DNA of 64,000 nt from Escherichia phage UE-S1. The stretch lies in the sequence record ON568341.1; one strand, written 5' to 3'. Made by a program: the position numbers and the translations under genes. This document shows, one piece after another, positions 3,645 through 15,879 of this stretch. Under the pieces are notes generated by a model. It had not been told where the DNA came from. It worked only from the letters and a program-made list of their open reading frames with translations, and made no database searches. The number at the start of each line of letters is the position of its first letter. Positions within the stretch are counted from its first letter, which is position 1.

Positions 3645-3647
3645 GTA

Positions 3648-4055: not shown

Positions 4056-4077
4056 TAGAATCCATTTAAAGTACTAT

Positions 4078-4106: not shown

Positions 4107-4150
4107 AGACTCTAACTTGTAGTACTAACTCAACTAATAGGATGTATACC

Positions 4151-4546
4151 ATGATTACTAAATTCTACGCTACCCGTGAAGCTGCCCGTATTGTTGCACG
4201 CGAGGAAGGAGCAGCATTTAAAGACATGGGCAAAGATGCAACGAAAGGTCAACGCTGGGCCGTACAGTTCAAAGAAATCTCTGATATTGTGAATTCACCT
4301 GAGCCAGTACTGACAGCAGCAGAACTAAAACGAGCGGATATGCTGGCGGCAATACTTGACGCACAAGATGAGTTTATCGCTGACTCTGATATCAAAGTAC
4401 AGGTAAACCACACCGCATGGACTCACGCGGATCACCTGGCAAACCTTAAGCGTCCAAGTGAACTGATTCGCAACCAGAAAGAGATCCGACATGATCGTAA
4501 GGGTAATCGTGTAACAGTATACAGTAAACGCCGCCAGGTTATCTAA
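4151..4546 (+). CDS. hypothetical protein (131 aa; alternative start 4142)
   Basis: AGGA RBS 9 nt upstream of ATG 4151; intrinsic terminator follows. Confidence 0.6.
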   Translation: MITKFYATREAARIVAREEGAAFKDMGKDATKGQRWAVQFKEISDIVNSPEPVLTAAELKRADMLAAILDAQDEFIADSDIKVQVNHTAWTHADHLANLKRPSELIRNQKEIRHDRKGNRVTVYSKRRQVI

Positions 4547-4568
4547 TAACTTGCAGTACTAACAACAC

Positions 4569-4593
4569 GGCGGGATCAGTTCCCGCCTTTTTT
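4569..4593 (+). terminator. rho-independent terminator
   Basis: GGCGGGA / TCCCGCC stem followed by TTTTTT. Confidence 0.7.
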
Positions 4594-4607
4594 ATAGGAC
4601 AAACAAA

Positions 4608-4862
4608 ATGATTAAGGTTCAACTATATAAAGATAACATCTTACGGGTACACTATAAAGCACCTCAGAGAATCATCACAAAGGCCGTACAGCTTGCTAAT
4701 GAGTTTATTAATGGTAACCTATTACCTAGGAAGTTAAGCAACGGAAAACTGCGTGTAATCGACGTGGACACTAACAACAGGATAGTAATCGAGAACACAG
4801 GAAAAATAAACCTATATGAACACCAACAATACAATAAGAAAATAAAACTAATATCACGTTGA
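4608..4862 (+). CDS. hypothetical protein (84 aa)
   Basis: RBS GGACAAACAAA upstream. Confidence 0.5.
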   Translation: MIKVQLYKDNILRVHYKAPQRIITKAVQLANEFINGNLLPRKLSNGKLRVIDVDTNNRIVIENTGKINLYEHQQYNKKIKLISR

Positions 4863-4887
4863 CAGTACTCAAATGTTTTAGTATTAT
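4859..4887 (+). promoter_or_regulatory. sigma70-type promoter (TTGACA-17-TATTAT), duplicated unit A
   Basis: 60-bp promoter/5-prime UTR block nearly identical to 5135-5191. Confidence 0.5.
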
Positions 4888-4915
4888 GTACACATACCAA
4901 CACGGGAGAAACAAA

Positions 4916-5134
4916 ATGAAATTATCTAAAATCGAAAAGAAAACTATTGATGAAGCAGTTAAGCACGGTTATACCTTTCGTAATGATTCACATTTTACCA
5001 ATTTTCAACAGGGGTATCGTACTATTAAAAAACTAATTGACAAAGGTTTATTAGTTGAAGTCAATAATGGGAACGGTATCGAGTATCAGCCAACCCAAGA
5101 CGCATTATCTTTAAAGAAATATAATATTATCTAA
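4916..5134 (+). CDS. hypothetical protein (72 aa)
   Basis: ATG 4916 after GGGAGAAACAAA RBS; track ORF from 4859 includes the promoter. Confidence 0.55.
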   Translation: MKLSKIEKKTIDEAVKHGYTFRNDSHFTNFQQGYRTIKKLIDKGLLVEVNNGNGIEYQPTQDALSLKKYNII

Positions 5135-5163
5135 TTGACAGTACTCAAATGTTTTAGTACTAT
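5135..5163 (+). promoter_or_regulatory. sigma70-type promoter (TTGACA-17-TACTAT), duplicated unit B
   Basis: copy of 4859-4887 block. Confidence 0.5.
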
Positions 5164-5191
5164 ATGTACATACCAACACGGGGGAAACAAA

Positions 5192-5434
5192 ATGATTACT
5201 TTAGAAAAACGTATCAAAGAAACTACATCGCTGGTGGAACTGTTAACAGTACTCAAATGTAAAACAACACCATTTAGCACGCCGGACTTTATTAATATGG
5301 TTGATGTTAATGGTCGCTATCGTATCACGGTCGAACAAGGAGCGGCGAAAGTATTCAGTACTAAAAACACGAAGGAAGTGATCCACGCCGTTAATGTTAA
5401 AAAAGTAGTTGCCATTGATAGTAAAGTACTGTAA
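5192..5434 (+). CDS. hypothetical protein (80 aa)
   Basis: ATG 5192 after GGGGGAAACAAA RBS. Confidence 0.55.
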   Translation: MITLEKRIKETTSLVELLTVLKCKTTPFSTPDFINMVDVNGRYRITVEQGAAKVFSTKNTKEVIHAVNVKKVVAIDSKVL

Positions 5435-5465
5435 TATAGTTTCATTAACTCAAGGAGAACATGCA

Positions 5466-6050
5466 ATGCGTAATTATACTAAATTCATCCGTACACTGTC
5501 AGAAATGGAAACCAACAAAGAGATCCTTTCAGCTTGTCGGTTAGCTGGCCTGGAGATCATCGGTGCTGGTTCTTCCCGTATAGTTTTCGCTTTAAATGAT
5601 CGGTTAGTGATTAAGGTCGCGAATTGTGATGCGGGTGTAGAACAAAATGAAACTGAATGTAAGGTATGGAATTTTTTAGACTATGACCGCCCTCAGTTGA
5701 AACAGTACTTTGCAAAGGTGCATATGCATTTATGCGATCCTGATAATATGTTTATCGTTATGGATCGGTTGAGTACTGCAAGCAAAGGTAGTGTGAAGCA
5801 CGTAAACGCGTGCAATGAATTAAAGTACAATATTAAACGTAATGCAATCGAACGCCATCACCGCTTTGCTGATGCACTACAACACGTCGATGATACATTA
5901 TCAACACTAACGATAAGAGATATCAGAAAACAGAATATCGGCCAGGATCGTAATGGCCTTATTAAAGTACTTGATTACGGTTTAACCTGCAATATCTGGA
6001 ATCAGTACTATAAAAAGCGTGATGTGGCAGCAAGTAAGGTAACACGATAA
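5466..6050 (+). CDS. putative minimal Hanks-type protein kinase-like protein
   Basis: GAGSSRIV (Gly loop), VIK (lysine), IRDIRKQNIG (catalytic loop), LDYG (DFG-like) in canonical order; RBS AAGGAGAA. Confidence 0.45.
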   Translation: MRNYTKFIRTLSEMETNKEILSACRLAGLEIIGAGSSRIVFALNDRLVIKVANCDAGVEQNETECKVWNFLDYDRPQLKQYFAKVHMHLCDPDNMFIVMDRLSTASKGSVKHVNACNELKYNIKRNAIERHHRFADALQHVDDTLSTLTIRDIRKQNIGQDRNGLIKVLDYGLTCNIWNQYYKKRDVAASKVTR

Positions 6051-6059
6051 AAAAGATTA

Positions 6060-6100
6060 AAAAAGGGATTGACTCCGGTCAGTCCCTTTGCTATTATATA
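6060..6100 (+). promoter_or_regulatory. repeated promoter-like dyad element, copy 2
   Basis: TTGACT 6069-6074, TATTAT 6092-6097. Confidence 0.55.
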
Positions 6101-6191
6101 TCCATTGAGAGATAACTCACTGACCCATAGGGTGCGGAAGTGTATCTATTATATAAGTATTCAGTACTGAAAACTATTTTTAAAAAAGTAC

Positions 6192-6219
6192 TTGCAAACT
6201 ATCTCAATGAGCGTATAAT
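6192..6219 (+). promoter_or_regulatory. sigma70-type promoter (TTGCAA-16-TATAAT)
   Basis: copy of promoter at 3192-3219. Confidence 0.55.
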
Positions 6220-6274
6220 GTTTTATATCGAGAGGGGGAAATGGTTCTCCCTAGTACTAAAAGGAATCAAGACG

Positions 6275-6496
6275 ATGACTACTATGACCTGCGTTCACGC
6301 TTCAAATCTTCTGAATGATGCAGCATTTAAAGCAGGTGAAGAATATCAATGCTATCGGGATGAAAATAAAAAAGTTTTTGTAGTTGATAATAATGGTTTC
6401 CATATTGAATTACAATCCGGCTTCACTGGTTTAAATGGTAAATCAGTATGGGGCGTACAGGATGATAAAGGTACATATCATTTTAAACGTAATTAA
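6275..6496 (+). CDS. hypothetical protein (73 aa)
   Basis: ATG 6275 after hairpin and AAAAGGAA RBS; track start 6140 lies upstream of the promoter. Confidence 0.5.
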   Translation: MTTMTCVHASNLLNDAAFKAGEEYQCYRDENKKVFVVDNNGFHIELQSGFTGLNGKSVWGVQDDKGTYHFKRN

Positions 6497-6499
6497 GTA

Positions 6500-6527
6500 T
6501 TGACAAAGTATATCAGTACTGTATAAT
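6500..6527 (+). promoter_or_regulatory. sigma70-type promoter (TTGACA-16-TATAAT)
   Basis: TTGACA 6500-6505, TATAAT 6522-6527. Confidence 0.55.
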
Positions 6528-6577
6528 AGTTTACATCAAGGGGAGAATGGTTCTCCCCACTAAAAGGAAACAAAATT

Positions 6578-6850
6578 ATGTCCAGCTACTCCGCTACTAT
6601 GATCATTAAAGATATGAACGGTAATCCTACTTCTGCTGGTGGATCATTTGGAAACATTAATTTAGATGGTCGGTTATCCATGCAATCAGCCATCGATGCA
6701 GCGAAAGAAGTTTTTAAGAATGAATGTACTGTTAGTAAGCTGGATTATATGGGTTTCGCTATCGAGAAAACTACTCGTTTTGTGAACTACAAAAATCCAC
6801 TGATGATTGATACTAACCTGAAAGCTAACGAAGTGGGGTACTTATTATGA
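6578..6850 (+). CDS. hypothetical protein (90 aa)
   Basis: promoter, hairpin, RBS. Confidence 0.6.
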   Translation: MSSYSATMIIKDMNGNPTSAGGSFGNINLDGRLSMQSAIDAAKEVFKNECTVSKLDYMGFAIEKTTRFVNYKNPLMIDTNLKANEVGYLL

Positions 6851-7038
6851 CAGTAGAAGAAGTAAAAAAAGTACTGGCAGTACTACGATATCATAATCAT
6901 TGCAAGGTGAAGAATGATCCTGATTATCTTGATTCATCCCTGGAGGAAGACACCTTGAACGCTATAAGCCATATGCAGACATTAGCAAAGCGTATGACTG
7001 AAAAGAACATGCCGGACTATATCGGAAATAAAATTTAA
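6847..7038 (+). CDS. hypothetical protein (63 aa)
   Basis: ATGA overlap with upstream gene. Confidence 0.5.
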   Translation: MTVEEVKKVLAVLRYHNHCKVKNDPDYLDSSLEEDTLNAISHMQTLAKRMTEKNMPDYIGNKI

Positions 7039-7045
7039 AAAGTAC

Positions 7046-7073
7046 TTGCATTGTAGTTAGATTAACGTATAAT
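7046..7073 (+). promoter_or_regulatory. sigma70-type promoter (TTGCAT-16-TATAAT)
   Basis: TTGCAT 7046-7051, TATAAT 7068-7073. Confidence 0.5.
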
Positions 7074-7124
7074 GTTTTATATCGAGAGGGGAAATGGTTT
7101 CCCCTCAAGTCCAGGAGATACACC

Positions 7125-7388
7125 ATGAACACTATCGAAATCACTATCAATGCACACGTATACGACAACGTAGTACTGCAAACTACTATGACCGCCAATG
7201 ATACCAGTACTTTGCGGAATACTGTTATTAGTGCTGTATGTGCCGCTATCGGTGATGTATCCCTGGAAAATTCAGAACACATCAACAACGGTTTCACTAT
7301 GTGCAAACGTGATAACGCAAAACATATCATCGTGGAAGGTTACGGCGGTGTAGAATTTAATGTTTATATGAAAAAAGTACTTGCATAA
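7125..7388 (+). CDS. hypothetical protein (87 aa)
   Basis: promoter, hairpin, RBS CAGGAGA. Confidence 0.6.
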   Translation: MNTIEITINAHVYDNVVLQTTMTANDTSTLRNTVISAVCAAIGDVSLENSEHINNGFTMCKRDNAKHIIVEGYGGVEFNVYMKKVLA

Positions 7389-7408
7389 TAACTAAAACAA
7401 AGTATAAT
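7381..7408 (+). promoter_or_regulatory. sigma70-type promoter (TTGCAT-16-TATAAT)
   Basis: overlaps 3-prime end of preceding gene. Confidence 0.5.
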
Positions 7409-7455
7409 GTTTTGCATAGGGGGAGATATCCTCCCCCACTAAAAGGAGTAATAAA

Positions 7456-7680
7456 ATGGCTAACTTTGATGAACTGATGCGGGAAGTAGCTTACCTGGCA
7501 GAAGAGAAGAAATCATTCGATTCTATCTATAACACCGCTCACCGTGATTCAGTACTGGCATGTAACCAGGATCAAAAAGATGAACTAATCGCCACCTATC
7601 ATGAAGCATGGAAGTACTACCGACAATGGGAGAAAGAAGAAAGTGAGTCTACCATTGACGGCCTCAATAATCTAATCTAA
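7456..7680 (+). CDS. hypothetical protein (74 aa)
   Basis: promoter, GGGGGAGATATCCTCCCCC hairpin, RBS. Confidence 0.6.
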   Translation: MANFDELMREVAYLAEEKKSFDSIYNTAHRDSVLACNQDQKDELIATYHEAWKYYRQWEKEESESTIDGLNNLI

Positions 7681-7699
7681 AAGTTTTATTTCAGTACTA

Positions 7700-7728
7700 T
7701 TGACATAGCTTGATAGTACTGATGTAAT
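7700..7728 (+). promoter_or_regulatory. sigma70-type promoter (TTGACA-17-TGTAAT)
   Basis: TTGACA 7700-7705. Confidence 0.5.
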
Positions 7729-7756
7729 AACTTTACTAACTACAAGGGGAAACATA

Positions 7757-8014
7757 ATGGATCAATTCACACAATATCGGGTAAATCCTCAAGCTATGGC
7801 CTACGTAGAAGACCATAAAACGTTACCAGTACTGCAACCAGTTAAAGGCCGTATCTATCGTGGCCTTGCCTGGGATACGGCCCAGGATGGATATAAAACC
7901 GTCGCCGTGGGTATGTATTGCGGTGATGGTGAATGGTTTGATCCAAATAATCCGGTATCCATTGACAGTACTGAAAAAATGAAATGGGCCGACTACATCG
8001 AAGATATTTCATAA
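7757..8014 (+). CDS. hypothetical protein (85 aa)
   Basis: promoter and RBS upstream. Confidence 0.6.
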   Translation: MDQFTQYRVNPQAMAYVEDHKTLPVLQPVKGRIYRGLAWDTAQDGYKTVAVGMYCGDGEWFDPNNPVSIDSTEKMKWADYIEDIS

Positions 8015-8021
8015 AAACTAT

Positions 8022-8049
8022 TTGACAGTACTAACCAGTAATGTATAAT
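8022..8049 (+). promoter_or_regulatory. sigma70-type promoter (TTGACA-16-TATAAT)
   Basis: TTGACA 8022-8027, TATAAT 8044-8049. Confidence 0.55.
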
Positions 8050-8104
8050 GTTTTACATAGAGCGGGGGAATAGTTCTCCCGCCAATAGTTTGGAGTAAAA
8101 CATT

Positions 8105-8305
8105 ATGTCTATCGCTATCGCCCTGGTTGAAGTACTGAAAGAAGCTAAAGCCAACCTTATCGACGTAAAGATCCAGGAACTACAAAACGGCTTAATCGGC
8201 TGTACTTGTACCGCTGGTGGAGCGGCAGACTATCGAGAACACGAATCACTCGAATCACTGGTTCGGTATCTTACCATGATCGTTGATGATTGGAGAATCA
8301 TCTAA
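8105..8305 (+). CDS. hypothetical protein (66 aa)
   Basis: promoter, hairpin, RBS. Confidence 0.55.
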   Translation: MSIAIALVEVLKEAKANLIDVKIQELQNGLIGCTCTAGGAADYREHESLESLVRYLTMIVDDWRII

Positions 8306-8318
8306 CAAAAAAGAATAA

Positions 8319-8359
8319 AAAAAGGGATTGACTCCGGTCAGTCCCTTTGCTATTATATA
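8319..8359 (+). promoter_or_regulatory. repeated promoter-like dyad element, copy 3
   Basis: TTGACT 8328-8333, TATTAT 8351-8356. Confidence 0.55.
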
Positions 8360-8468
8360 CGCATAGACAAAAACTAGCCCACAGGGTGCATAGGTGTATC
8401 CAAAATATATAGTTAATAACGGTGAGTAACTATCTGCTGGTGGAACTAAAACTATTAATAAAAAAGTA

Positions 8469-8497
8469 TTGACAAAGTATATCAGTACTGCAATAAT
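8469..8497 (+). promoter_or_regulatory. sigma70-type promoter (TTGACA-17-AATAAT)
   Basis: TTGACA 8469-8474; weaker -10. Confidence 0.45.
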
Positions 8498-8550
8498 GTA
8501 TCTCGTAGGGCGGCAATGGTGCGACGGCCCACAAAGTTAGGAGATTCACC

Positions 8551-8883
8551 ATGAGTACTTCAATCGCTATCGTTAAAGCTTTCATCCGTACTAATGTTTC
8601 CTCTGTATTCATCGACGGCCTCGACCGTAACGTAGAATACTCAATCATTATCGCACAAACGGCAAACGGTTCTCGGTACATCCTGAATGATAGTGAAGCA
8701 AATCACTACTACTTCACTAAAGCCACTGGCTTTAAACGCATCGATGCTGATGTAGTATACGCTAAGATGAATAAGCTGGTAGACAAGATTAACGCGAAAG
8801 GTACTATCGATTTACAGTACTGGACCGAAACCGATCCAGAATATGGATCTCACCGCTACCTGAATCCAGGTATCAAAATGTAA
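8551..8883 (+). CDS. hypothetical protein (110 aa)
   Basis: RBS AGGAGA upstream. Confidence 0.6.
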   Translation: MSTSIAIVKAFIRTNVSSVFIDGLDRNVEYSIIIAQTANGSRYILNDSEANHYYFTKATGFKRIDADVVYAKMNKLVDKINAKGTIDLQYWTETDPEYGSHRYLNPGIKM

Positions 8884-8890
8884 AAAGTAC

Positions 8891-8918
8891 TTGCATAGTA
8901 CTTAGATTCATGTATAAT
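8891..8918 (+). promoter_or_regulatory. sigma70-type promoter (TTGCAT-16-TATAAT)
   Basis: TTGCAT 8891-8896, TATAAT 8913-8918. Confidence 0.5.
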
Positions 8919-8972
8919 GTTTTACATAGAGAGGGGGAAATGGTTCTCCCTCCTAAATTAAGGAGTTTTATC

Positions 8973-9374
8973 ATGACCTTCTCAATCACTTCCTTCGCTG
9001 ACGTTTTAGTACTGGCCCGGACTTTTGGTAAAGCTGGCCTTGAGCACGCTGTAAGTAATGGTCATATGCACCCTGAATATTGCCGCATCATCGGTAGCTG
9101 CAAACGTTGGGCCGTGTCCCGTAACATTGAGATTGAAAACTTCAATGACGGCAACAACGAATATACAGTTGATGCAGTATTCGAAGCCGTTGATCTCGGC
9201 GGTATCTATAACACTAACCTGAATGATGTGCGTATCGTTCGCACGGGGTTCGGTGCTTATGATGTATCTATCCGTGAAGCTATGGACAAGGGATACATTA
9301 GCAAGGACCAGTTAGCTTACATCATGCAGCAAACTAAGGAACGTAACGAAGCACGTACTATCTTAGGGTTGTAA
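8973..9374 (+). CDS. hypothetical protein (133 aa)
   Basis: ATG 8973 after AAGGAG RBS; track start 8910 lies in the promoter. Confidence 0.6.
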   Translation: MTFSITSFADVLVLARTFGKAGLEHAVSNGHMHPEYCRIIGSCKRWAVSRNIEIENFNDGNNEYTVDAVFEAVDLGGIYNTNLNDVRIVRTGFGAYDVSIREAMDKGYISKDQLAYIMQQTKERNEARTILGL

Positions 9375-9442
9375 GCGTTACACATCACCAAACATCATAG
9401 GCCGCCTTGTAGCGGCCTTAACTATATCAGGAGTTCATACAC

Positions 9443-9652
9443 ATGAACTATACAGTATACAGCGTTCTAGGCACTATTGCAGGCGTACATGATAACGTCG
9501 ATGGTGCTATGCGTACAGTACTGCAACAGGTTCCACTAAAGCCTAAGACCATTAAGCAGATGACAGCACGACTAACCAGGGCGACGGCTGGCGTGGAAGT
9601 ATGGCAGGACTATGGGGATACACAGATAATCGTAAGCGTAACGAAGGATTAA
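9443..9652 (+). CDS. hypothetical protein (69 aa)
   Basis: RBS CAGGAG upstream. Confidence 0.55.
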   Translation: MNYTVYSVLGTIAGVHDNVDGAMRTVLQQVPLKPKTIKQMTARLTRATAGVEVWQDYGDTQIIVSVTKD

Positions 9653-9680
9653 TGCGTAAAAGGATTTAGTACTGATTCAG

Positions 9681-9747
9681 AAAAAAGTCAAGGCGTTTTT
9701 TAAATTATGCGTTAAAAAAATGCATAGGTAATCCCTTGACTTTTTTG
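9681..9747. promoter_or_regulatory. long inverted repeat at module boundary (13-bp arms AAAAAAGTCAAGG / CCTTGACTTTTTT)
   Basis: perfect arms ~40 bp apart, T-run after right arm; possible terminator of early unit. Confidence 0.4.
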
Positions 9748-9843
9748 AAATAAAAGGGATTGGACTATGGCAAAATGCGTAGGGGGCTAAAGGGCGGGTA
9801 ACCTTAGCGACTTCGTTAAAGGGGTATTACGAATAAAATGTTA

Positions 9844-9871
9844 TTGACTTTTTATATAAATCGTATAAAAT
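9844..9871 (+). promoter_or_regulatory. sigma70-type promoter (TTGACT-16-TAAAAT) for FamA array
   Basis: TTGACT 9844-9849; only clear promoter before a 6-kb run of overlapping genes. Confidence 0.45.
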
Positions 9872-9901
9872 ATGATTGATAATAATTTTAAGGGAGTCCC
9901 T

Positions 9902-10099
9902 GTGCGTATTTTAACTCAAGCAGAACACCACGAAAGACTTATCAATAACATGGCTATGATAATGTATAAGTCCCATGACCGTGGTATTGCATATAAGCGT
10001 GAATTAGTACTGGAACTATTCATTGGGACTAACTATCAGGAAAGGTATGTCAACGATTGGATTTGGTATTTAATTGAAGATATAACGAGTAAACTATGA
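9902..10099 (+). CDS. FamA small paralog (LGTNYQE family)
   Basis: GTG 9902 after AAGGGAG RBS (track ATG 9872 sits inside promoter); motif FIGTNYQERYV. Confidence 0.6.
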   Translation: MRILTQAEHHERLINNMAMIMYKSHDRGIAYKRELVLELFIGTNYQERYVNDWIWYLIEDITSKL

Positions 10100-10290
10100 T
10101 AATTTTAACTAAAGAAGAATATCAATCACTGTTACGTAAAAACTACGTAAAGATTTACAATACAGCCACACACGTAGAACGAATGGAGTTATACCTTTTG
10201 ATTACATTGGGAACTAACTATCAGGAAAGATGGGTGATTCAATATATGGATACATTGAAAAATAAAATATTGTCCACGAGGAAACAATGA
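10096..10290 (+). CDS. FamA small paralog
   Basis: motif LGTNYQERWV; 4-nt overlaps. Confidence 0.65.
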   Translation: MIILTKEEYQSLLRKNYVKIYNTATHVERMELYLLITLGTNYQERWVIQYMDTLKNKILSTRKQ

Positions 10291-10496
10291 AAATCATAAC
10301 ACACAGACAAGCATTGAGTCGTATGGTGAAGTATCTTGAATTGATGGTGTCTATACCAAAGAGCTTACCAAAAACTGAAAGAGAGATACATTCAGCAGAG
10401 TATCGTCTATTAGCAGTACTGAATACTAACTACCAAGATGAATATGTTGACGATTGGATTCTATCATTAATAGAAGATATAAAGAGTAAACTATGA
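10287..10496 (+). CDS. FamA small paralog
   Basis: motif LNTNYQDEYV. Confidence 0.65.
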   Translation: MKIITHRQALSRMVKYLELMVSIPKSLPKTEREIHSAEYRLLAVLNTNYQDEYVDDWILSLIEDIKSKL

Positions 10497-10708
10497 ATAT
10501 CATTGCGAACTCACATCAATATACCGAACGCGTCGCTGCCAGACAACTTGAAATCCTCATAATATACGAAGAAACTTCTGATTTAAACTTAGCTGAGGTA
10601 TTGGAAAATGAAATACTTTTGGGTGCATTCTTGGGAACAGACTATCAGGAGTATTATGAGGAAAAGTATTTGTCATCTCTTGAGAAATACATCAGGAGTA
10701 AACAATGA
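10493..10708 (+). CDS. FamA small paralog
   Basis: motif LGTDYQEYYE. Confidence 0.65.
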   Translation: MNIIANSHQYTERVAARQLEILIIYEETSDLNLAEVLENEILLGAFLGTDYQEYYEEKYLSSLEKYIRSKQ

Positions 10709-10932
10709 AACATTTAAGTATAAGAGAGAAGAATAAAATTATCATCAATGTCATGAACCGATATAATCAACTATTGGATAGAGAATACTCAAGTTCATAT
10801 GTGCACAGGATAAACACTACGGATGTACGCATGATGGCTGTACTGGGGACAAACTATCAGGAAAGTTATGTTCATGAGCACATAGTTGCACTCACTAATT
10901 ACATAATGGACAAATGTAATGAACATCATTAA
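10705..10932 (+). CDS. FamA small paralog
   Basis: motif LGTNYQESYV. Confidence 0.65.
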   Translation: MKHLSIREKNKIIINVMNRYNQLLDREYSSSYVHRINTTDVRMMAVLGTNYQESYVHEHIVALTNYIMDKCNEHH

Positions 10933-11143
10933 TAACTTTGAATACGAGGCCCGTGTTAAGAGTGCCAGAGAAAAAGAGAACACCATTTACTTCACTATGA
11001 TGTACTTACAATGGACTGAAATTGAAGAAAAGGTTGCTGAAGTATGGATGTTGGAATTCATGGGGACGCAGTATCAGAATATGTTTGCGGGTGAGTATAT
11101 CAATGTTCTTATGAAACAAATAGAAAGGAAGGAAAAGAACTAA
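10919..11143 (+). CDS. FamA small paralog
   Basis: motif MGTQYQNMF. Confidence 0.6.
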   Translation: MNIINNFEYEARVKSAREKENTIYFTMMYLQWTEIEEKVAEVWMLEFMGTQYQNMFAGEYINVLMKQIERKEKN

Positions 11144-11232
11144 TGGAGGGATGCTGTACTTTATTTGAACTTTTATATATTCATGAACACATAGTTGCCC
11201 TCACAAATCTAATAAAGGATAAATGTAAATGA
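11143..11232 (+). pseudogene. truncated FamA paralog remnant (29 codons)
   Basis: encodes MEGCCTLFELLYIHEHIVALTNLIKDKCK; 3-prime part matches C-terminus of gene 10705-10932 (HEHIVALTNYIMDKC); central motif deleted; start/stop overlaps retained. Confidence 0.4.
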
Positions 11233-11486
11233 AACACTTGACTGATGATGAACATGAAACTATAATTCGTAAACTAACCCCCATCACAAGGATAGTATAC
11301 GGTGATCCCAGCCTTACATGGAACCAAATGCAAGCTAAAGTTAATGAGCTATGGTTGCTGTACTTTATGGGGACTCAATATCAAGATAAGTTTTGCACAG
11401 AATATATCGAACAATTAACGAATGTTATACAGGATAAACTAAATGAACGAATTGTGGAAAAATATGAAAACTTTATCAAGCATTGA
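11229..11486 (+). CDS. FamA small paralog
   Basis: motif MGTQYQDKF. Confidence 0.6.
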   Translation: MKHLTDDEHETIIRKLTPITRIVYGDPSLTWNQMQAKVNELWLLYFMGTQYQDKFCTEYIEQLTNVIQDKLNERIVEKYENFIKH

Positions 11487-11715
11487 GTATCAGACTGCCC
11501 TCTTCTCTCTTCTAAATACCCTCCGCACGAACAATAAACTTTATAATTCCCGTGAAGCTGATATTGTCAACGCTGATGTATATCTTAATAAATTCATTGG
11601 GACTAACTATCAAGAACTGTTTGTTTTACGATATATCTCTGCACTAAGAAACGAAATATCAGATAAAACCCGACAAGCCAGAAGAGAATGGAAGAAACAA
11701 TGCGACACAGACTAA
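11443..11715 (+). CDS. FamA small paralog
   Basis: motif IGTNYQELFV. Confidence 0.6.
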   Translation: MNELWKNMKTLSSIEYQTALFSLLNTLRTNNKLYNSREADIVNADVYLNKFIGTNYQELFVLRYISALRNEISDKTRQARREWKKQCDTD

Positions 11716-11951
11716 ATCACAAAATGTATTGTAAACTATTACAGGAACTGACACAGAAACACTATAATACAATATCTTCCATATTACCCTATGATATCAT
11801 GCGTTTAATTCATAGTGAGGCAGAGATGTTAGTACTGATGACCGGTACTGATAAAATAGCAATCACCAGATCGATAGAGCAATATATTGATGCACACTGT
11901 CAATGTATTAGAACTGAGATATGGAGGCGAGTAAATGAAAGTACTGAATGA
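11688..11951 (+). CDS. FamA-like divergent paralog
   Basis: motif degenerate (MTGTDKIAI); same size and packing. Confidence 0.5.
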   Translation: MEETMRHRLNHKMYCKLLQELTQKHYNTISSILPYDIMRLIHSEAEMLVLMTGTDKIAITRSIEQYIDAHCQCIRTEIWRRVNESTE

Positions 11952-12150
11952 GTATCAGTATCATTGGAGGTTACAAACTATAAGAGGGAAAGTTGTTAGT
12001 ATTTCTTTAGACAAGTCTATTGCACAAGAGGACAAATGTGTTATAATAGCTGAAATGAAGTTGGGTGTATTTGTAGGAACAAACTATCAAAACATCTACA
12101 CTGACGTATTATTAAGTGCCTTACGCAACAAGGTGTTATCCAGAGAATGA
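11935..12150 (+). CDS. FamA small paralog
   Basis: motif VGTNYQNIYT. Confidence 0.65.
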   Translation: MKVLNEYQYHWRLQTIRGKVVSISLDKSIAQEDKCVIIAEMKLGVFVGTNYQNIYTDVLLSALRNKVLSRE

Positions 12151-12365
12151 GAAAATTAATAGGTTACGAATATGTTAAGCTTCTGAAAACCTGTAGTATT
12201 AGCAGGGTAAAGATTCAATCTGATAAGAGTATTCCTGTTGAACTAAAGTACGCAATGATGGCTGAACTTTATGTAGGTGCACTATTGGGGACAAACTATC
12301 AACAAATGTATGTAGACCTATGGGTTGACGCTCTACAGAAAGAGGTCCAAAGTAAATGCAAATGA
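12147..12365 (+). CDS. FamA small paralog
   Basis: motif LGTNYQQMYV. Confidence 0.65.
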   Translation: MRKLIGYEYVKLLKTCSISRVKIQSDKSIPVELKYAMMAELYVGALLGTNYQQMYVDLWVDALQKEVQSKCK

Positions 12366-12577
12366 TTCATTTATCTTACTATGAATATCAAAAACGTTTA
12401 AATGCATCAAGAGGTATAAGGATTCAAATCTTCAATAACAAAAGATTGAAATCTGAAGCCAAAAAAATCAAAATCATAGAAGCAGAGTTGTGCAACTTTC
12501 TAGGGACGAACTATCAGGAAGGTAAGATAAAAAACTATCTTAGAGAACTAATGATTAGTATCAAGAGTAAATGTTAG
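12356..12577 (+). CDS. FamA small paralog
   Basis: motif LGTNYQEGKI. Confidence 0.65.
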   Translation: MQMIHLSYYEYQKRLNASRGIRIQIFNNKRLKSEAKKIKIIEAELCNFLGTNYQEGKIKNYLRELMISIKSKC

Positions 12578-12581
12578 GCAG

Positions 12582-12839
12582 ATGTACATGAAAATGATTA
12601 AATTATCTCAAGCAAAATATAAAGAACGCCTGGAAAAAATTACACCTAAACTTAATGAAATCCATCACGGAGAAGTCATTAAACACGGAAATAAGATGAT
12701 TATGAAACTTGAGTTAAAGGTGGGTGCATTCATAGGAACAAACTATCAGGAGTATTATGTAGATGAATACATAATCGCACTTAAGAGATACATTGGAAGA
12801 AAACTATATCTACAAACTAAAGAATTGTATTGCAAATAA
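12582..12839 (+). CDS. FamA small paralog
   Basis: motif IGTNYQEYYV. Confidence 0.65.
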   Translation: MYMKMIKLSQAKYKERLEKITPKLNEIHHGEVIKHGNKMIMKLELKVGAFIGTNYQEYYVDEYIIALKRYIGRKLYLQTKELYCK

Positions 12840-12850
12840 ATGTGAGGTTG

Positions 12851-13120
12851 ATGAACATGCAAATGATTAATTTAAGTAAAGATGAATATACCGAGCGTAT
12901 GACAAAAATTACGCACAAACGTAATACAATCTATCACAACCCAGAAATTCAACACAGTAAGAAAATGATTATGATGCGTGAGTTAAAGATGGGTGTATTC
13001 TTAGGAACAAACTATCAAGATACAGAAGTAAATCGCTTAATCGCGGAGTTACTACTGGAAATCAGAGGTAAGCTGTACTTTCATCAAATGACCCAACCAC
13101 TGAGGTGTACTAAGAAATGA
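12851..13120 (+). CDS. FamA small paralog
   Basis: motif LGTNYQDTEV; start chosen downstream of previous stop. Confidence 0.6.
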   Translation: MNMQMINLSKDEYTERMTKITHKRNTIYHNPEIQHSKKMIMMRELKMGVFLGTNYQDTEVNRLIAELLLEIRGKLYFHQMTQPLRCTKK

Positions 13121-13332
13121 TCAACATCACATTGCAAGAAAGATTCATCCGAATCAACTATGCAATTACCAAATTAGATGCTACTATAGGATTCCAAAGT
13201 CTACCGTTCCAAACAAGAATGATATTAGAGTGCGAAGCTAAATTGGGTGTACTGTTAGGAACGCAACACCAACAACGATATGTGGAAATCTGGATTGATC
13301 TTTTAACCCAAAATGTACATGAGAAAATGTAA
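13117..13332 (+). CDS. FamA small paralog
   Basis: motif LGTQHQQRYV. Confidence 0.65.
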   Translation: MINITLQERFIRINYAITKLDATIGFQSLPFQTRMILECEAKLGVLLGTQHQQRYVEIWIDLLTQNVHEKM

Positions 13333-13569
13333 ATGAAAAATGAAATGATATACTTAACGAATGAAGAGTTTCAAGAGAAGATGTTAAAAATCTATGATAA
13401 TACTCTTGAGTACGTTCCAAATCAATCAATATATGAAGTGTCTGCGAATGTATTATTTCAGAAGCTACCATACGTTCTTGGTACTGATAAACAAGAATTT
13501 ATGGTCAAAAATATGATTGAACATCTTATGATGAGTATTAAGGAAAAAGTAAATGCAAAAACAAAATAA
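13333..13569 (+). CDS. FamA small paralog
   Basis: motif LGTDKQEFMV. Confidence 0.6.
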   Translation: MKNEMIYLTNEEFQEKMLKIYDNTLEYVPNQSIYEVSANVLFQKLPYVLGTDKQEFMVKNMIEHLMMSIKEKVNAKTK

Positions 13570-13570
13570 A

Positions 13571-13816
13571 ATGATATACTTAACACCTGCTGAGTTAACA
13601 GAAAGACTAGTTAAATCCAGAAGATATACAAATCAACTTCCTCACAACCCAAATCAAAGCCCAGCGGAAAGGAGTGCAGAAGTTTTATTCCAATCACTAC
13701 CATACCTTCTTGGAACTAATAGACAAGAGTATCATATCGAACGTATAATTAAATATCTTAAAATTACTATTAAGGAAAAGATACATGCTCAAGAATTTAA
13801 AAATCCTAACAGCTAA
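13571..13816 (+). CDS. FamA small paralog
   Basis: motif LGTNRQEYHI. Confidence 0.6.
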   Translation: MIYLTPAELTERLVKSRRYTNQLPHNPNQSPAERSAEVLFQSLPYLLGTNRQEYHIERIIKYLKITIKEKIHAQEFKNPNS

Positions 13817-14027
13817 TGAATATCATAAGATTGTAATGACGACTAATAGTGCAATTTCTAAAAAATCAAATCCCAAATACATACTGGAACACACATTTGA
13901 AGAACGACAATTAACTTTAGTTGAAGCAAAACTTCTTGCACTCCTAGGAACAAACTATCAAGAAGAGTACGTTAGAAAACTAATATACCTTTTAACTAAA
14001 CATATTAGAAAAAAGAAAAACGCATGA
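13785..14027 (+). CDS. FamA small paralog
   Basis: motif LGTNYQEEYV. Confidence 0.6.
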   Translation: MLKNLKILTANEYHKIVMTTNSAISKKSNPKYILEHTFEERQLTLVEAKLLALLGTNYQEEYVRKLIYLLTKHIRKKKNA

Positions 14028-14254
14028 AACACTTGACAGATGATGAACATGGGCTTATAGTAATGGATGTAATCAACATCGAATACAAAAAGTTGATACG
14101 CTACCGTTGTTATGAAGATAAGCAACTCGTTCTAGAAGAACAGAAGTTGTTTCGACTCTTAAACACAAACTACCAAGCACAATACGAAGAATCGTATATG
14201 TACCTTTTGGCGAGGAAAGCAAAAAGAGATTATGAAAATTTTAAGCGAAGGTGA
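14024..14254 (+). CDS. FamA small paralog
   Basis: motif LNTNYQAQYE; N-terminus MKHLTDDEH shared with gene 11229. Confidence 0.65.
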   Translation: MKHLTDDEHGLIVMDVINIEYKKLIRYRCYEDKQLVLEEQKLFRLLNTNYQAQYEESYMYLLARKAKRDYENFKRR

Positions 14255-14447
14255 TGCAGTAATATTACTTATCGAGAATTCACGTAAATTCGTAAACATA
14301 ACACTGTCTGATATAGATGAAGATGACAAAGAAGTACTGAGAGCAGATTTAAGAGTACTGTTACATCTCGGAACAAACCTACAAGAAAGATATGTAGAGT
14401 TCTACATTGATGAACTTAAAGAATCAGTACTGAAAAGATGCAAATGA
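14232..14447 (+). CDS. FamA small paralog
   Basis: motif LGTNLQERYV. Confidence 0.6.
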   Translation: MKILSEGDAVILLIENSRKFVNITLSDIDEDDKEVLRADLRVLLHLGTNLQERYVEFYIDELKESVLKRCK

Positions 14448-14665
14448 AAATCATTACTGACGAAGAATACCTAACAATCATAAATGGACTGTTTTTGAAG
14501 CTATATGCTATTAACATATCAAACCTACCAGATATGGATAAAATTATTAAGAGAAATGAAATCTATGTTCTAGCTACCCTGGGAACTAACTATCAAGAAT
14601 ACGATATTAATGATTATATTAAGACACTTAAACGAGCGATTGAACTAAAATGCCAAAACCACTAG
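14438..14665 (+). CDS. FamA small paralog
   Basis: motif LGTNYQEYDI. Confidence 0.65.
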   Translation: MQMKIITDEEYLTIINGLFLKLYAINISNLPDMDKIIKRNEIYVLATLGTNYQEYDINDYIKTLKRAIELKCQNH

Positions 14666-14865
14666 GAACAGCAGAATACATTGAACTCATGGGATTACAC
14701 TTCTCATCCTTTCAGAAACTTATGCGAGAATCAAAGAATGATTTAGAATATACCATCAGAGGTTCAGATTTAAGAATGCTTCTCACCCTAGACACAGATT
14801 CCCAAGAGCGATTTGTCAATGAGCACATTAGAGCACTTTTAATGGAAATTCAAAGTAAACTATGA
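14650..14865 (+). CDS. FamA small paralog
   Basis: motif LDTDSQERFV. Confidence 0.6.
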   Translation: MPKPLGTAEYIELMGLHFSSFQKLMRESKNDLEYTIRGSDLRMLLTLDTDSQERFVNEHIRALLMEIQSKL

Positions 14866-15077
14866 AGGAAATATCAAACCAAGAGTACTTGGCACTATTC
14901 AGAAAGAATAATCATAAATTTATGGCACTTGATACAAGAACTGATATAGGGGAACTTGAAAAAAATCTTTTGCGTTCAGAGATGATAGTACTGACACTTT
15001 TAGGAACACAGCATCAAGAGAGAACTGTTAATTCATATATTGAGATTCTTACGAAGCTTATACAGGAAAAACTATGA
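14862..15077 (+). CDS. FamA small paralog
   Basis: motif LGTQHQERTV. Confidence 0.65.
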   Translation: MKEISNQEYLALFRKNNHKFMALDTRTDIGELEKNLLRSEMIVLTLLGTQHQERTVNSYIEILTKLIQEKL

Positions 15078-15295
15078 GAATCATAACACAAACAGACATA
15101 TTTAAGTTAGCAAGAGAACATACATCTGAAATTGATGCTATAGTATCAAAAAGTTACAATGACCCTTATACACAAGATGTACACTACAATGAATTATGGG
15201 TGTATATACTTTTAGGTACAAATTATCAAGAGCAAGCAGTACAGAAGTATTTGACAGCCTTAAGTACTGCTATTGCTAATGGAATAGGTGTTTAA
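15074..15295 (+). CDS. FamA small paralog
   Basis: motif LGTNYQEQAV. Confidence 0.65.
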   Translation: MRIITQTDIFKLAREHTSEIDAIVSKSYNDPYTQDVHYNELWVYILLGTNYQEQAVQKYLTALSTAIANGIGV

Positions 15296-15539
15296 AATGC
15301 TAGTACTGACAGAACTAGAAATGTATCATAGATTTAACAAGTACTATCATTTACTTAAGCCTATACAGAGGATTAAATGTCCATTTGAAGAGAAACAGGT
15401 ATTAATTTATGAGCATAAGTTATTTGTATCATTAGGTACGAATGAACAAGAGTATTATTTGAAGTTGTACTTAATTACTTTAATTGAATTGATTAATCAC
15501 AAAACTCAGAAAGCTAAGAAATCTAAAAATGAAAACTAA
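15288..15539 (+). CDS. FamA small paralog
   Basis: motif LGTNEQEYYL. Confidence 0.6.
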   Translation: MFKMLVLTELEMYHRFNKYYHLLKPIQRIKCPFEEKQVLIYEHKLFVSLGTNEQEYYLKLYLITLIELINHKTQKAKKSKNEN

Positions 15540-15867: not shown

Positions 15868-15879
15868 GAGTACTGATAT

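What the first reader, a model, noticed from the sequence alone, without database searches (positions are those of the whole stretch)
9653..9901. Structured boundary between the early-style region and the paralog arrays
This 250-bp intergenic segment holds a perfect 13-bp inverted repeat (AAAAAAGTCAAGG ... CCTTGACTTTTTT) with a T-run, a degenerate copy of the GGGATTGAC element, and the only clear promoter feeding the FamA array. Base composition and gene style change here, from a more GC-rich region with one promoter per gene to a more AT-rich region of promoter-less overlapping genes. It may be a junction between temporal classes or between an ancestral module and an expanded one.
Basis: partly seen in the sequence, partly recalled or inferred. 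Interest (0 to 1): 0.45.

Follow-up and report, generated by a model that had tools for sequence, protein, structure and literature searches.

The report
Right end of jumbo-phage terminal repeat
This 250-bp gap is where the roughly 20-kb direct terminal repeat of an Asteriusvirus-type jumbo coliphage stops and single-copy DNA begins: in related phages the end of the packaged DNA maps to base 9804, inside a non-coding element of about 125 bp that is conserved across several phage genera and is most likely the site where the packaging enzyme cuts.

Summary
The 13-bp inverted repeat is perfect, the promoter at 9844-9871 exists, and composition and gene layout change here. GC drops from 38.4% to 32.2%, near-consensus promoters from 1.22/kb to 0.20/kb, and the median intergenic gap from 79.5 nt to -4.

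The cause is physical. The window comes from an Asteriusvirus (PBECO4/121Q group). In eight related genomes the virion DNA end, or the end of the annotated direct terminal repeat (DTR), falls at ...GGGCGGGTAACCT|TAGCGAC, which is window 9804|9805. One of them, fEgEco12, was checked by PhageTerm and restriction digests.

The homologous CT|TAGC is also the terminus in Klebsiella phage fENko-Kae01, Pectobacterium phage CBB and Erwinia phage Kaldavass. Blastn between genera detects only this non-coding stretch of about 100-150 bp, not the flanking genes.

The right arm of the repeat (CCTTGACTTTTTT) and GGACTATG belong to this conserved element. The left arm does not, so the hairpin is lineage-specific.

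Best reading: a DTR/unique junction carrying a cos/pac-like terminus-forming site, followed by the first promoter of the unique region.

The DTR is already published. I did not find the conserved terminal element described. Both sides of the junction look early (sigma-70-type promoters, late motif absent), so the data do not show a change of temporal class.

The parts
9443..9652 (+). Last gene of the direct terminal repeat (69 aa, phrog_17833, function unknown)
   Evidence: ORF list and PHROG match, E = 9e-36. It is the last annotated CDS before the repeat end in vB_Ec-M-J, fEgEco12, E9.1, BF17, CRJP21, G17 and WPEC3. It shares 37% amino-acid identity with the last repeat gene of fENko-Kae01.
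9666..9675 (.). TTAGTACTGA, a one-mismatch copy of the palindrome TCAGTACTGA that is over-represented across the window
   Evidence: CAGTACTG occurs 47 times in the window against 0.7 expected.
9681..9693 (+). Left arm of the 13-bp inverted repeat (AAAAAAGTCAAGG). It is specific to this lineage.
   Evidence: Absent in Turkey5 and JNE01. Replaced by other inverted repeats in A4 (12 bp) and Kaldavass (8 bp). Serratia phage BF and CBB have TTGACTTTT in direct orientation at this place.
9716..9746 (+). Conserved block AAAATGCATAGGTAATCCCTTGACTTTTTT. It includes the right arm of the inverted repeat (9734-9746) and the T-run.
   Evidence: Highest cross-genus identity in the whole junction alignment, 0.69 mean pairwise, above the adjacent coding region. 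Nearly the same sequence occurs in Kaldavass, XbC2, CBB and EJP2.
9756..9769 (+). GGGATTGGACTATG. The core GGACTATG (9762-9769) lies at a fixed distance from the terminus core.
   Evidence: Conserved in Asteriusvirus, fENko-Kae01, BF, fHe-Yen9-04, XbC2, CBB and Kaldavass. Where measured (Asteriusvirus and fENko-Kae01), its end lies 39-40 nt before the end of TTAGC. The pattern GGACTATG-N30-48-TTAGC occurs once in the window against 0.03 expected.
9787..9804 (+). Terminus core CTAAAGGGCGGGTAACCT. Base 9804 is the last base of the terminal repeat and the 3' end of the virion DNA top strand.
   Evidence: Six deposited genomes end at exactly ...GGGCGGGTAACCT, as does fEgEco12. JP4 carries ...GGGTAACCT joined directly to the left terminus AGTAGGCAGAGG. 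The vB_Ec-M-J repeat annotation ends at the same base. The homologous CT|TAGC is the terminus in fENko-Kae01, CBB and Kaldavass.
9805..9815 (+). First bases of single-copy DNA, TAGCGACTTCG. TAGC follows the cut in all 14 lineages in which this flank could be read.
   Evidence: Cross-genus identity falls from about 0.57 to 0.29 after about 9814. A partly conserved GGGGTAT follows at 9821-9827.
9844..9871 (+). First promoter of the unique region (TTGACT, 16-nt spacer, TAAAAT)
   Evidence: The -35 element and a -10-like hexamer are kept in vB_Ec-M-J, fEgEco12, 121Q, Turkey5, JNE01, EJP2 and PBECO4. fENko-Kae01 has TTGACA-17-TATACT at the same place. The promoter is deleted in SD-15_S21.
9902..10099 (+). 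First gene of the unique region and first member of the phrog_4148 paralog array ('FamA'). GTG start preceded by AAGGGAG at 9890-9896.
   Evidence: ATG at the same position in vB_Ec-M-J, annotated CDS. PHROG match E = 1e-19, with the same family for the following genes.

Best explanation
The interval is the junction between the direct terminal repeat (DTR, about 20-21 kb in relatives) and the single-copy part of an Asteriusvirus genome.

Shown by comparison:
- The packaged DNA of relatives ends at window base 9804 (...GGGTAACCT). Everything to its left is present at both ends of the virion DNA, and everything from 9805 (TAGCGAC...) is single-copy.
- This explains the switch in style. The repeat holds small genes that each have their own near-consensus host-type promoter. 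The unique region opens with densely overlapping paralog arrays.

Inferred:
- Bases about 9680-9815 form a cis-acting terminus-forming site. On replicated concatemers the packaging terminase, or a partner nuclease, recognises the conserved blocks and cuts at CT|TAGC. The blocks are AAAATG.ATAGGTAAT.CCTTGACTTTT, GGACTATG and CTAAAGG.C.GGTAA.
- This cut makes the right end of each chromosome. A different site makes the left end, about 20-21 kb upstream in relatives and outside this window.
- The 13-bp inverted repeat is the conserved TTGAC/T-run block plus an inverted copy specific to this lineage. It may also serve as a weak terminator after the last repeat gene.
- The promoter at 9844 restarts transcription into the unique region.
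For: Identity of the window: it is about 90% identical to Asteriusvirus genomes.

Position of the terminus:
- The vB_Ec-M-J feature 'Direct Terminal Repeats' 1..21525 ends inside the homologous gap.
- E9.1, BF17, CRJP21, G17, WPEC3 and vB_Ec-M-J all end 152 nt after the stop codon of the 69-aa gene, at ...GGGCGGGTAACCT.
- fEgEco12 ends at the same base. Its termini were set by PhageTerm and confirmed by restriction digests (PMC13070987).
- JP4 shows the right terminus joined to the left terminus.
- G17, Sharanji, fENko-Kae01 and CBB have published repeats of 19.7-22.5 kb.

Conservation of the element:
- Between genera, blastn detects only the non-coding stretch of about 100-150 bp that ends at or runs just past the cut, at 79-87% identity, in records where that stretch carries no CDS annotation.
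- Mean pairwise identity over 9716-9814 is 0.54-0.69, equal to or above the neighbouring conserved gene, and drops to 0.29 after 9814.
- The annotated or record termini of fENko-Kae01, CBB and Kaldavass fall at the homologous CT|TAGC.
- Internal spacings are fixed: 64-69 nt between the TTGAC-type block and TTAGC, and 39-40 nt from the end of GGACTATG to the end of TTAGC.
- The outer flanks of the two repeat boundaries are inverted copies of a short motif. They read CRCTA| on the left and |TAGYG on the right in both Asteriusvirus and fENko-Kae01.

Contrast in style across 9804.
Against: - No read-level data exist for this particular phage. The terminus is transferred from relatives that are identical across the terminus core (9787-9804), with scattered substitutions further upstream.
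- No protein-DNA or cleavage data exist for any member. The conserved element could serve another end-related function.
- The left boundary carries no copy of the right-end blocks. One recognition rule for both cuts therefore rests only on a 5-nt inverted motif, which is weak statistically.
- The ELP-22 record ends elsewhere, 24 nt after the stop codon. The fEgEco12 paper judges the UE-S1 repeat mis-assigned. Not every deposited end is reliable.
- The left arm of the inverted repeat is not conserved, so the repeat as such is not explained by the conserved site.
Confidence: 0.7

Rival explanations
1. The inverted repeat is mainly an intrinsic transcription terminator, possibly bidirectional. 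It would close the last transcription unit of the terminal repeat and insulate the unique region, which is then restarted from the promoter at 9844. This can coexist with the terminus-site reading.
For: - The layout is A6-GTCAAGG...CCTTGAC-T6, an A-tract/stem/U-tract arrangement.
- The RNA fold has a 13-bp outer stem plus a nested 9-bp hairpin, z = -3.85.
- It sits 29 nt after the stop codon of the last repeat gene and upstream of a fresh promoter.
- Other lineages have different hairpins at the same place. Turkey5 and JNE01 have GAUGCAU...AUGCAUU followed by U5. A4 has a 12-bp stem with a 7-nt loop. Kaldavass has an 8-bp stem.
- In vB_Ec-M-J two substitutions (G9680T, T9745A) create CAT/ATG pairing beyond a 2-nt bulge.
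Against: - The 40-nt spacer is outside the normal terminator range, and the terminator scan did not call it.
- The stem next to the U-run has only 4 G-C pairs.
- In A4 the stem is followed by A6, not U.
- In BF and CBB the upstream TTGACTTTT copy is in direct orientation, so no hairpin forms.
- WPEC3 has a mismatch at the innermost pair.
- The right arm is conserved as sequence, not as a pairing partner.
Confidence: 0.3
2. The conserved terminal element serves an end-related function other than terminase cutting. Candidates are a stop or pause signal for stepwise DNA entry (as in T5 first-step transfer), a binding site for an end-protection protein, contact of the last-packaged DNA with the portal or tail, or priming of replication or recombination at the repeat border.
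For: - The element occupies the last 125 bp or so of the packaged DNA.
- Like T5 and SPO1 (own knowledge), the long repeat is filled with small genes behind strong host-type promoters.
- TTGACTTTTT occurs three times, with starts 53 and 108 bp apart, about 5 and 10 helical turns. That would suit a bound protein.
Against: - The invariant bases straddle the cut itself (CT|TAGC). Part of the conservation (TAGC, and GGGGTAT in many lineages) lies outside the mature end. That fits a site read on concatemers better than a function of the free end.
- Nothing is known about stepwise entry in these phages.
Confidence: 0.15
3. The inverted repeat has no function of its own. It would be a by-product of duplication or inversion of the conserved TTGAC/T-run motif in an AT-rich spacer next to a variation hotspot.
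For: - The left arm is confined to the PBECO4/121Q and fEgEco12 clades.
- The region shows other local duplications. Turkey5 has an 80-nt tandem duplication. The window has the repeats CGAATAAAATGTTATTGA / CGTATAAAATATGATTGA.
- The same 10-mer, TTGACTTTTT, is reused in the promoter at 9844.
Against: - A perfect 13-bp match is improbable by chance.
- It is retained, with at most one or two changes, in all genomes compared from the PBECO4/121Q and fEgEco12 clades, which differ elsewhere in the spacer.
Confidence: 0.15

Closest known systems
Long exact direct terminal repeats of Rak2-like / Asteriusvirus jumbo phages, as published and annotated (fEgEco12 20,993 bp; vB_Ec-M-J 21,525 bp; Sharanji 20,668 bp; fENko-Kae01 19,736 bp; CBB 22,456 bp)
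   Same: It is the same feature. The window's junction is homologous to the inner end of those repeats and identical across the terminus core.
   Different: The papers I read report only repeat lengths and how they were found. None describes the junction sequence, the conserved terminal element, the CT|TAGC cut context or the change of gene organisation at the border.
Phage lambda cos site (cosQ-cosN-cosB)
   Same: A fixed cleavage position is flanked by recognition blocks at set distances. The recognition blocks lie mostly on one side of the cut. The comparison with lambda rests on my own knowledge of it.
   Different: Lambda makes 12-nt cohesive ends and has no terminal repeat. Here the cut borders a 20-kb repeat. 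The sequences are unrelated, and the terminase here belongs to T4-related phages.
T7/T3 concatemer junction processing (exact short terminal repeats)
   Same: Sequence-specific ends lie at both borders of one repeat copy in the concatemer. This implies duplication of the repeat, or sacrifice of neighbouring genomes, during packaging (own knowledge).
   Different: The repeat is 160-230 bp in T7/T3 against about 20 kb here. No sequence similarity was seen. No hairpin-primed duplication signal was identified here.
T5 left terminal repeat (pre-early genes) and the SPO1 terminal redundancy (host-takeover module)
   Same: A long terminal repeat is packed with small genes of unknown function. Most have their own strong host-sigma promoter, with wide intergenic spacers. 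The comparison itself rests on my own knowledge of T5 and SPO1; the BF23 abstract seen says that BF23, like T5, carries long (~9.7 kb) terminal repeats and injects its DNA in two stages.
   Different: No evidence exists for two-step DNA entry. No homology to T5 or SPO1 genes was tested or found. The host and phage lineage differ.
Rho-independent (bidirectional) terminators
   Same: An A-tract, a stem and a T-tract lie directly after a gene.
   Different: There are 40 nt between the arms, the stem is weak, and the hairpin is not conserved in relatives.

Membership tests
Inner boundary of a long exact direct terminal repeat (fixed-end genome) | DNA on one side of the point is present at both ends of the virion DNA, and DNA on the other side is single-copy | tested here: met
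   In vB_Ec-M-J, fEgEco12, E9.1, BF17, CRJP21, G17 and WPEC3 the sequence up to the base homologous to 9804 recurs at the other end of the record, and the sequence after it does not. JP4 has two tandem copies joined at this base.
Inner boundary of a long exact direct terminal repeat (fixed-end genome) | The end falls at the same nucleotide in independent isolates | tested here: met
   Eight Asteriusvirus genomes share it, as does the homologous position in fENko-Kae01, CBB and Kaldavass. The ELP-22 record is the exception.
Inner boundary of a long exact direct terminal repeat (fixed-end genome) | A pile-up of read ends and a two-fold coverage step in this phage's own virion sequencing data | not testable with these tools
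   Only the assembled window is available. For relatives this is reported in PMC13070987, PMC11895373, PMC11218385, PMC6563267 and PMC5259590.
Terminase recognition/cleavage site (cos/pac-type cis element) | It coincides with the physical terminus | tested here: met
   The cut at 9804|9805 lies inside the conserved element.
Terminase recognition/cleavage site (cos/pac-type cis element) | Non-coding sequence is conserved beyond its flanks across divergent relatives, with fixed internal spacing | tested here: met
   the only blastn-detectable segment between genera; identity profile; spacing; 12-lineage alignment.
Terminase recognition/cleavage site (cos/pac-type cis element) | Specific binding and cutting by the phage terminase, and a requirement for packaging | not testable with these tools
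   This needs biochemistry or genetics.
Lambda-type cos site | Staggered nicks that give complementary single-stranded ends, with no terminal duplication | tested here: not met
   Relatives carry repeats of 20-22 kb at both ends. Whether the ends are blunt or carry short overhangs is unknown.
Rho-independent terminator | A G+C-rich stem with a short loop (about 3-8 nt) | tested here: not met
   There are 40 nt between the arms. The terminator scan did not list it. RNAfold nests a second hairpin in the loop.
Rho-independent terminator | A U-run directly after the stem | tested here: met
   T6 at 9741-9746, followed by GAAAT.
Rho-independent terminator | The hairpin is maintained in relatives, ideally with compensatory changes | tested here: inconclusive
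   It is kept in close relatives, with one paired change in vB_Ec-M-J. It is absent in Turkey5 and JNE01. Different hairpins occur in A4 and Kaldavass, and none in BF or CBB.
Sigma-70-type promoter (9844-9871) | -35 and -10 hexamers with a 16-18-nt spacer, placed upstream of a gene | tested here: met
   TTGACT-16-TAAAAT, 10 of 12. The ribosome-binding site and start codon lie 19-31 nt downstream. It is conserved in most relatives.
Sigma-70-type promoter (9844-9871) | A mapped transcription start and dependence on host RNA polymerase | not testable with these tools
   I found no transcript data for Asteriusvirus.
The window's own GGGATTGAC hairpin-promoter element (3055, 6062, 8321) | A second arm GTCAGTCCC that forms a 12-pair hairpin, and a -10 (TATTAT) 17 nt after TTGACT | tested here: not met
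   At 9756-9769 there is no second arm and no -10. The search for GGGATTGAC with one mismatch did not return it. The motif is instead conserved as GGACTATG in other genera.
T5-type injection stop / first-step-transfer signal | DNA entry pauses at a repeat-rich non-coding site in the terminal repeat | not testable with these tools
   Only the general resemblance (a long repeat full of promoter-equipped small genes) was seen.

The most novel reading that the evidence does not exclude
A right-terminal site of about 150 bp is shared by at least five groups of Rak2-like jumbo phages: Asteriusvirus, the fENko-Kae01/Munch group, Eneladusvirus, Mimasvirus, and the unclassified phage Kaldavass. It runs AAAATG.ATAGGTAAT.CCTTGACTTTT, about 15-20 nt, GGACTATG, about 35 nt, CT|TAGC. 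It would be the sequence-specific cutting signal that lets terminases of T4-related phages make exact ends flanking a 20-kb repeat. Both repeat borders would then be cut at inverted copies of a short motif (CRCTA| ... |TAGYG). That gives a defined substrate for asking how long exact terminal repeats are generated and duplicated.
Probability: 0.35. Interest if true: 0.6.

Novelty: new member of a known kind. Interest (0 to 1): 0.4.

Why it matters
The finding itself is explained by a known feature. Asteriusviruses have direct terminal repeats of about 20 kb, and this gap is where the repeat ends. That settles why composition, promoter density and gene spacing change here.

It also gives a rule for placing the true ends of related genomes that were deposited with arbitrary start points or with only one repeat copy. 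The right end is ...CT|TAGC, with GGACTATG ending 39-40 nt before the end of TTAGC.

What goes beyond the literature I could read is that the last 125 bp or so of the repeat, plus the first few bases outside it, are conserved across genera whose neighbouring genes are no longer alignable as DNA. How long exact terminal repeats are cut and duplicated is, to my knowledge, poorly understood even for T5 and SPO1. A compact conserved candidate site in cultivable coliphages makes that question testable by mutagenesis and in vitro cleavage.

Tried and rejected
- A search of IMG/VR with the 69-aa protein returned only 121Q.
- The pattern scan GATTGGACTATG-N-CCTTAG in IMG/VR gave 121Q plus three unrelated matches that look like chance.
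- A stricter three-block pattern in metagenomes gave one true relative (L039) and four matches that look like chance. Neither collection added much.
- Rfam gave only a sub-threshold match to bglG-cis-reg (30 bits against a gathering score of 80). I treated it as chance.
- I rejected the right arm as a working sigma-70 promoter. TTGACT at 9736 is followed 17 nt later by ATTGGA, which is no -10. The distance to GACTAT is 21-22 nt in all lineages.
- I rejected a leftward promoter using CATAGT (the reverse complement of GGACTATG). The -35 candidates are weak, 3-4 of 6.
- Cruciform extrusion seems unlikely with a 40-nt spacer.
- Covariation in the inverted repeat could not be tested properly. Close relatives are too similar, and distant ones lack the left arm.
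- No copy of the right-end blocks was found at the left repeat border.
- The terminus core GGTAACC-TTAGC resembles the upstream block GGTAATCCCTTGAC, and both read ACCTTAGCG in Turkey5. This is suggestive, but I could not show it exceeds chance, so I do not rely on it.
- My first attempt at pairwise identity with free end gaps gave nonsense values. I replaced it with a MAFFT-based profile.

Full report
**What is in the interval**

Window 9653-9901 is the gap between a 69-aa gene (9443-9652) and the first gene of a paralog array. That gene has a GTG start at 9902, preceded by AAGGGAG; relatives have ATG at the same position.

- The inverted repeat AAAAAAGTCAAGG (9681-9693) / CCTTGACTTTTTT (9734-9746) is perfect.
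- The window holds three perfect inverted repeats of 13 nt or more with a loop of 60 nt or less, against 0.22 expected from first-order Markov simulations.
- As RNA, 9653-9810 folds to -43.2 kcal/mol, z = -3.85.
- The promoter scan finds TTGACT-16-TAAAAT at 9844-9871.

**The change in style is real**

- GC is 38.4% for 1-9804 and 32.2% for 9805-64000. No 9.8-kb window in the latter exceeds 33.4%.
- GC3 falls from 38% to 28-30%.
- Plus-strand promoter matches of at least 11 of 12 fall from 1.22/kb to 0.20/kb. Perfect 12/12 matches fall from 0.71/kb to 0.06/kb.
- Left of the junction, 27 genes have a median gap of 79.5 nt and 27.5% of the DNA is non-coding. In 9.8-20 kb, 37 genes have a median gap of -4 and 28 of 36 junctions overlap.
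- The claim that 9844 is the only promoter for the arrays is overstated. Scan matches of 11-12 of 12 lie at 11238, 13720, 14033 and 17367.

**What the junction is**

The window is about 90% identical to Asteriusvirus jumbo coliphages such as PBECO4, 121Q and G17.

- In vB_Ec-M-J the annotated 'Direct Terminal Repeats' 1..21525 ends inside the homologous gap.
- The records of vB_Ec-M-J, E9.1, BF17, CRJP21, G17 and WPEC3 all stop 152 nt after the stop codon of the 69-aa gene, at ...GGGCGGGTAACCT. This aligns to window 9804.
- fEgEco12 ends at the same base. Its left repeat copy continues ...AACCT|TAGCGACTTCG exactly as the window does. Its termini come from PhageTerm and were confirmed by restriction digestion (PMC13070987).
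- JP4, a permuted record with two tandem repeat copies, reads ...gggtaacct|agtaggcagagg, which is the right terminus joined to the left terminus.
- Published repeat lengths for G17, Sharanji, fENko-Kae01 and CBB are 19.7-22.5 kb.
- One record, ELP-22, ends elsewhere.

I therefore place the end of the repeat at 9804|9805. The window starts about 9.8 kb inside the left repeat copy.

**A conserved terminal element**

Within Asteriusvirus the divergent members Turkey5, JNE01, A4 and EJP2 keep the terminus core but not the left arm of the inverted repeat. Turkey5 and JNE01 also keep GGGATTGGACTATG; A4 and EJP2 have diverged forms of it (GACCTGT, GACCTATG). Turkey5 and JNE01 have no inverted repeat of 8 nt or more, and A4 has a different 12-bp one.

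- In Klebsiella phage fENko-Kae01 the PhageTerm repeat ends ...TTGACTTTTCTATAAAAAATATTGATTGGACTATG-N36-GCCT|TAGCC. Its last repeat gene is a 37%-identical homologue of the window's.
- Blastn from fENko-Kae01 or Serratia phage BF detects, in other genera, only this non-coding stretch of about 100-150 bp at 79-87% identity, at positions carrying no CDS annotation. The genera reached are Eneladusvirus (BF, the pEa_SNUABM phages, fHe-Yen9-04), Mimasvirus (CBB, XbC2), and the unclassified phage Kaldavass.
- CBB's annotated repeat (1..22456) ends ...CCAGTAACGCT|TAGCGAGG. The Kaldavass record ends ...CCAGTAATGCT.
- In a 12-lineage alignment the terminus core aligns as GG.C.GT.A..C-TTAGC. In every lineage the base homologous to 9804 is a T preceded by C, and TAGC follows in the 11 lineages whose record continues past the cut.
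- Upstream blocks are AAAATG..A.G.AAT.CCTT.AC.TTT and GGACTATG.
- Spacings are fixed: 64-69 nt from the first block to TTAGC, and 39-40 nt from the end of GGACTATG to the end of TTAGC.
- In a four-lineage alignment (window, EJP2, fENko-Kae01, BF), mean pairwise identity is 0.54-0.69 over 9716-9814. The neighbouring gene scores 0.42-0.66. Identity falls to 0.29 after 9814.
- A partly conserved GGGGTAT follows at +17 to +23. It is missing in viable phages such as SD-15_S21.

The left arm is an addition specific to this lineage.

**Mechanism**

Shown: the terminus position, the conservation and the fixed spacing.

Inferred: on concatemers the terminase, or a partner nuclease, reads the element and cuts at CT|TAGC to form right ends. 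The reasons are:
- The invariant bases straddle the cut.
- Part of the conservation lies outside the mature end.
- The recognition blocks lie on one side, as in lambda cos (own knowledge).

The left border in relatives reads CCCACTA|AGTAGG in fEgEco12 and CCGCTA|TATCTT in fENko-Kae01. Its outer flank is the inverse of |TAGYG at the right border. This is suggestive but short. No copy of the right-end blocks occurs at the left border. That border has its own conserved element 90-240 nt inside the repeat, outside this window.

I cannot tell whether the right-end site starts or ends packaging, nor how the 20-kb repeat is duplicated.

**Rival readings**

- A terminator role for the hairpin is plausible and compatible with the main reading. 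There is an A-tract, a stem and a U6 run directly after the last repeat gene, and other lineages have other hairpins at the same place. Against it are the 40-nt spacer, the absence of a call by the terminator scan, and the lack of conservation.
- Functions of the free end (stepwise entry, end protection, portal contact, priming) are not excluded. They fit the cut-straddling conservation less well.
- The left arm may be a by-product of local duplication.

**Temporal class**

Both sides carry sigma-70-type promoters. The T4-like late core ATAAATA, proposed for CBB and GAP32, occurs twice in the window, both times on the minus strand. The expectation is 50.5 +/- 7.3. TATAAATA does not occur at all. 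Sequence therefore gives no sign of a class change at the junction, only a change in promoter density. I found no transcript data for these phages.

**Comparison with what is known**

The long repeat is published and annotated for relatives. The junction sequence, the conserved element and the cut context were not described in any paper I could read.

- By position and conservation it resembles a cos/pac-type site. It is not a lambda-type cos site, because there are repeats rather than cohesive ends.
- The repeat's gene content resembles the T5 and SPO1 terminal repeats in layout only.

**Verdict**

The feature is the known terminal-repeat boundary, carrying an element that appears not to have been described before. 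I rate it a new member of a known kind, with interest 0.4.

Noticed in passing
whole window, e.g. 1663, 6162, 6514, 8483, 14425, 29064, 59472; also L002, L010, L021: The palindrome CAGTACTG is the most frequent 8-mer in the window, with 47 copies against 0.70 +/- 0.93 expected. AGTACT occurs 204 times against about 21 expected from base composition. Of the 47 copies, 38 lie in coding DNA, almost all in two of the three codon phases. AGTACT is about three times denser in the repeat part (7.5/kb) than in the unique part (about 2.5/kb). In relatives, CAGTACTG and its one-mismatch variants cluster in the gene-free first 1.7 kb of the repeat and just before the left terminus. The cause is unknown; a protein-binding, modification or nicking site are possibilities.
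   Followed up: partly
whole window (the only hits are 41223-41229 and 51526-51532, minus strand): ATAAATA, the T4-like late-promoter core proposed for CBB and GAP32, occurs twice against 50.5 +/- 7.3 expected. TATAAATA does not occur. The whole 64 kb, on both sides of the junction, is purged of the late motif.
   Followed up: partly
whole window: GCGC is absent (0 against about 27-47 expected). GATC is at about half its expectation. CCATGG, CAGCTG, AGGCCT and AGCGCT are absent. This looks like restriction-site avoidance.
   Followed up: no
3055-3082, 6062-6089, 8321-8348: There are three identical 28-nt elements, AAAGGGATTGACTCCGGTCAGTCCCTTT, each followed by GCTATTATAT. Each forms a 12-pair terminator-like hairpin whose rising arm carries the -35 (TTGACT) of the next promoter (TTGACT-17-TATTAT). 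This is a compact terminator/promoter unit confined to the repeat part.
   Followed up: partly
just right of 9824; L018 (PBECO4), L017 (SD-15_S21), L016 (A4), L029 (EJP2): The first 20 nt or so past the terminus are followed by a variation hotspot. PBECO4 has an extra 366-nt gene with its own promoter, and the blastn match in BF17 has the same ~490-bp gap. SD-15_S21 has lost the promoter. A4, EJP2 and fENko-Kae01 have unrelated first genes.
   Followed up: partly
outside the window: L010 1195-1240, L021 586-628 and 660-700: The left end of the repeat in relatives has its own conserved non-coding element, AGTACTCCATCCTAAATC...TTTTGGAGTACC, with an 8-bp inverted repeat. It lies 90-240 nt inside the repeat. 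Blastn detects it in Asteriusvirus, fENko-Kae01, BF, GAP32, XbC2 and Erwinia phages.
   Followed up: partly
9902-16095 and beyond: The arrays that start at the junction belong to a single PHROG family of unknown function (phrog_4148; some members also match phrog_28039). All five array genes tested between 9902 and 12839 match it, and the 65-85-aa genes mostly overlap by 4 nt.
   Followed up: partly
L014 601-760 (Turkey5): An 80-nt tandem duplication covers the last codons of the 69-aa gene and the start of the spacer.
   Followed up: no
L005 (BAU.Micro_ELP-22 record end): This record ends 24 nt after the stop codon of the 69-aa gene instead of 152 nt. Its deposited repeat boundary is probably misplaced by 128 nt.
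   Followed up: no
44650-44684 and 48422-48497: Two further perfect 13-bp inverted repeats were found: AGATTTTAATAAT with a 9-nt loop, and AAGAGAACATCTA with a 50-nt loop. They were not examined.
   Followed up: no
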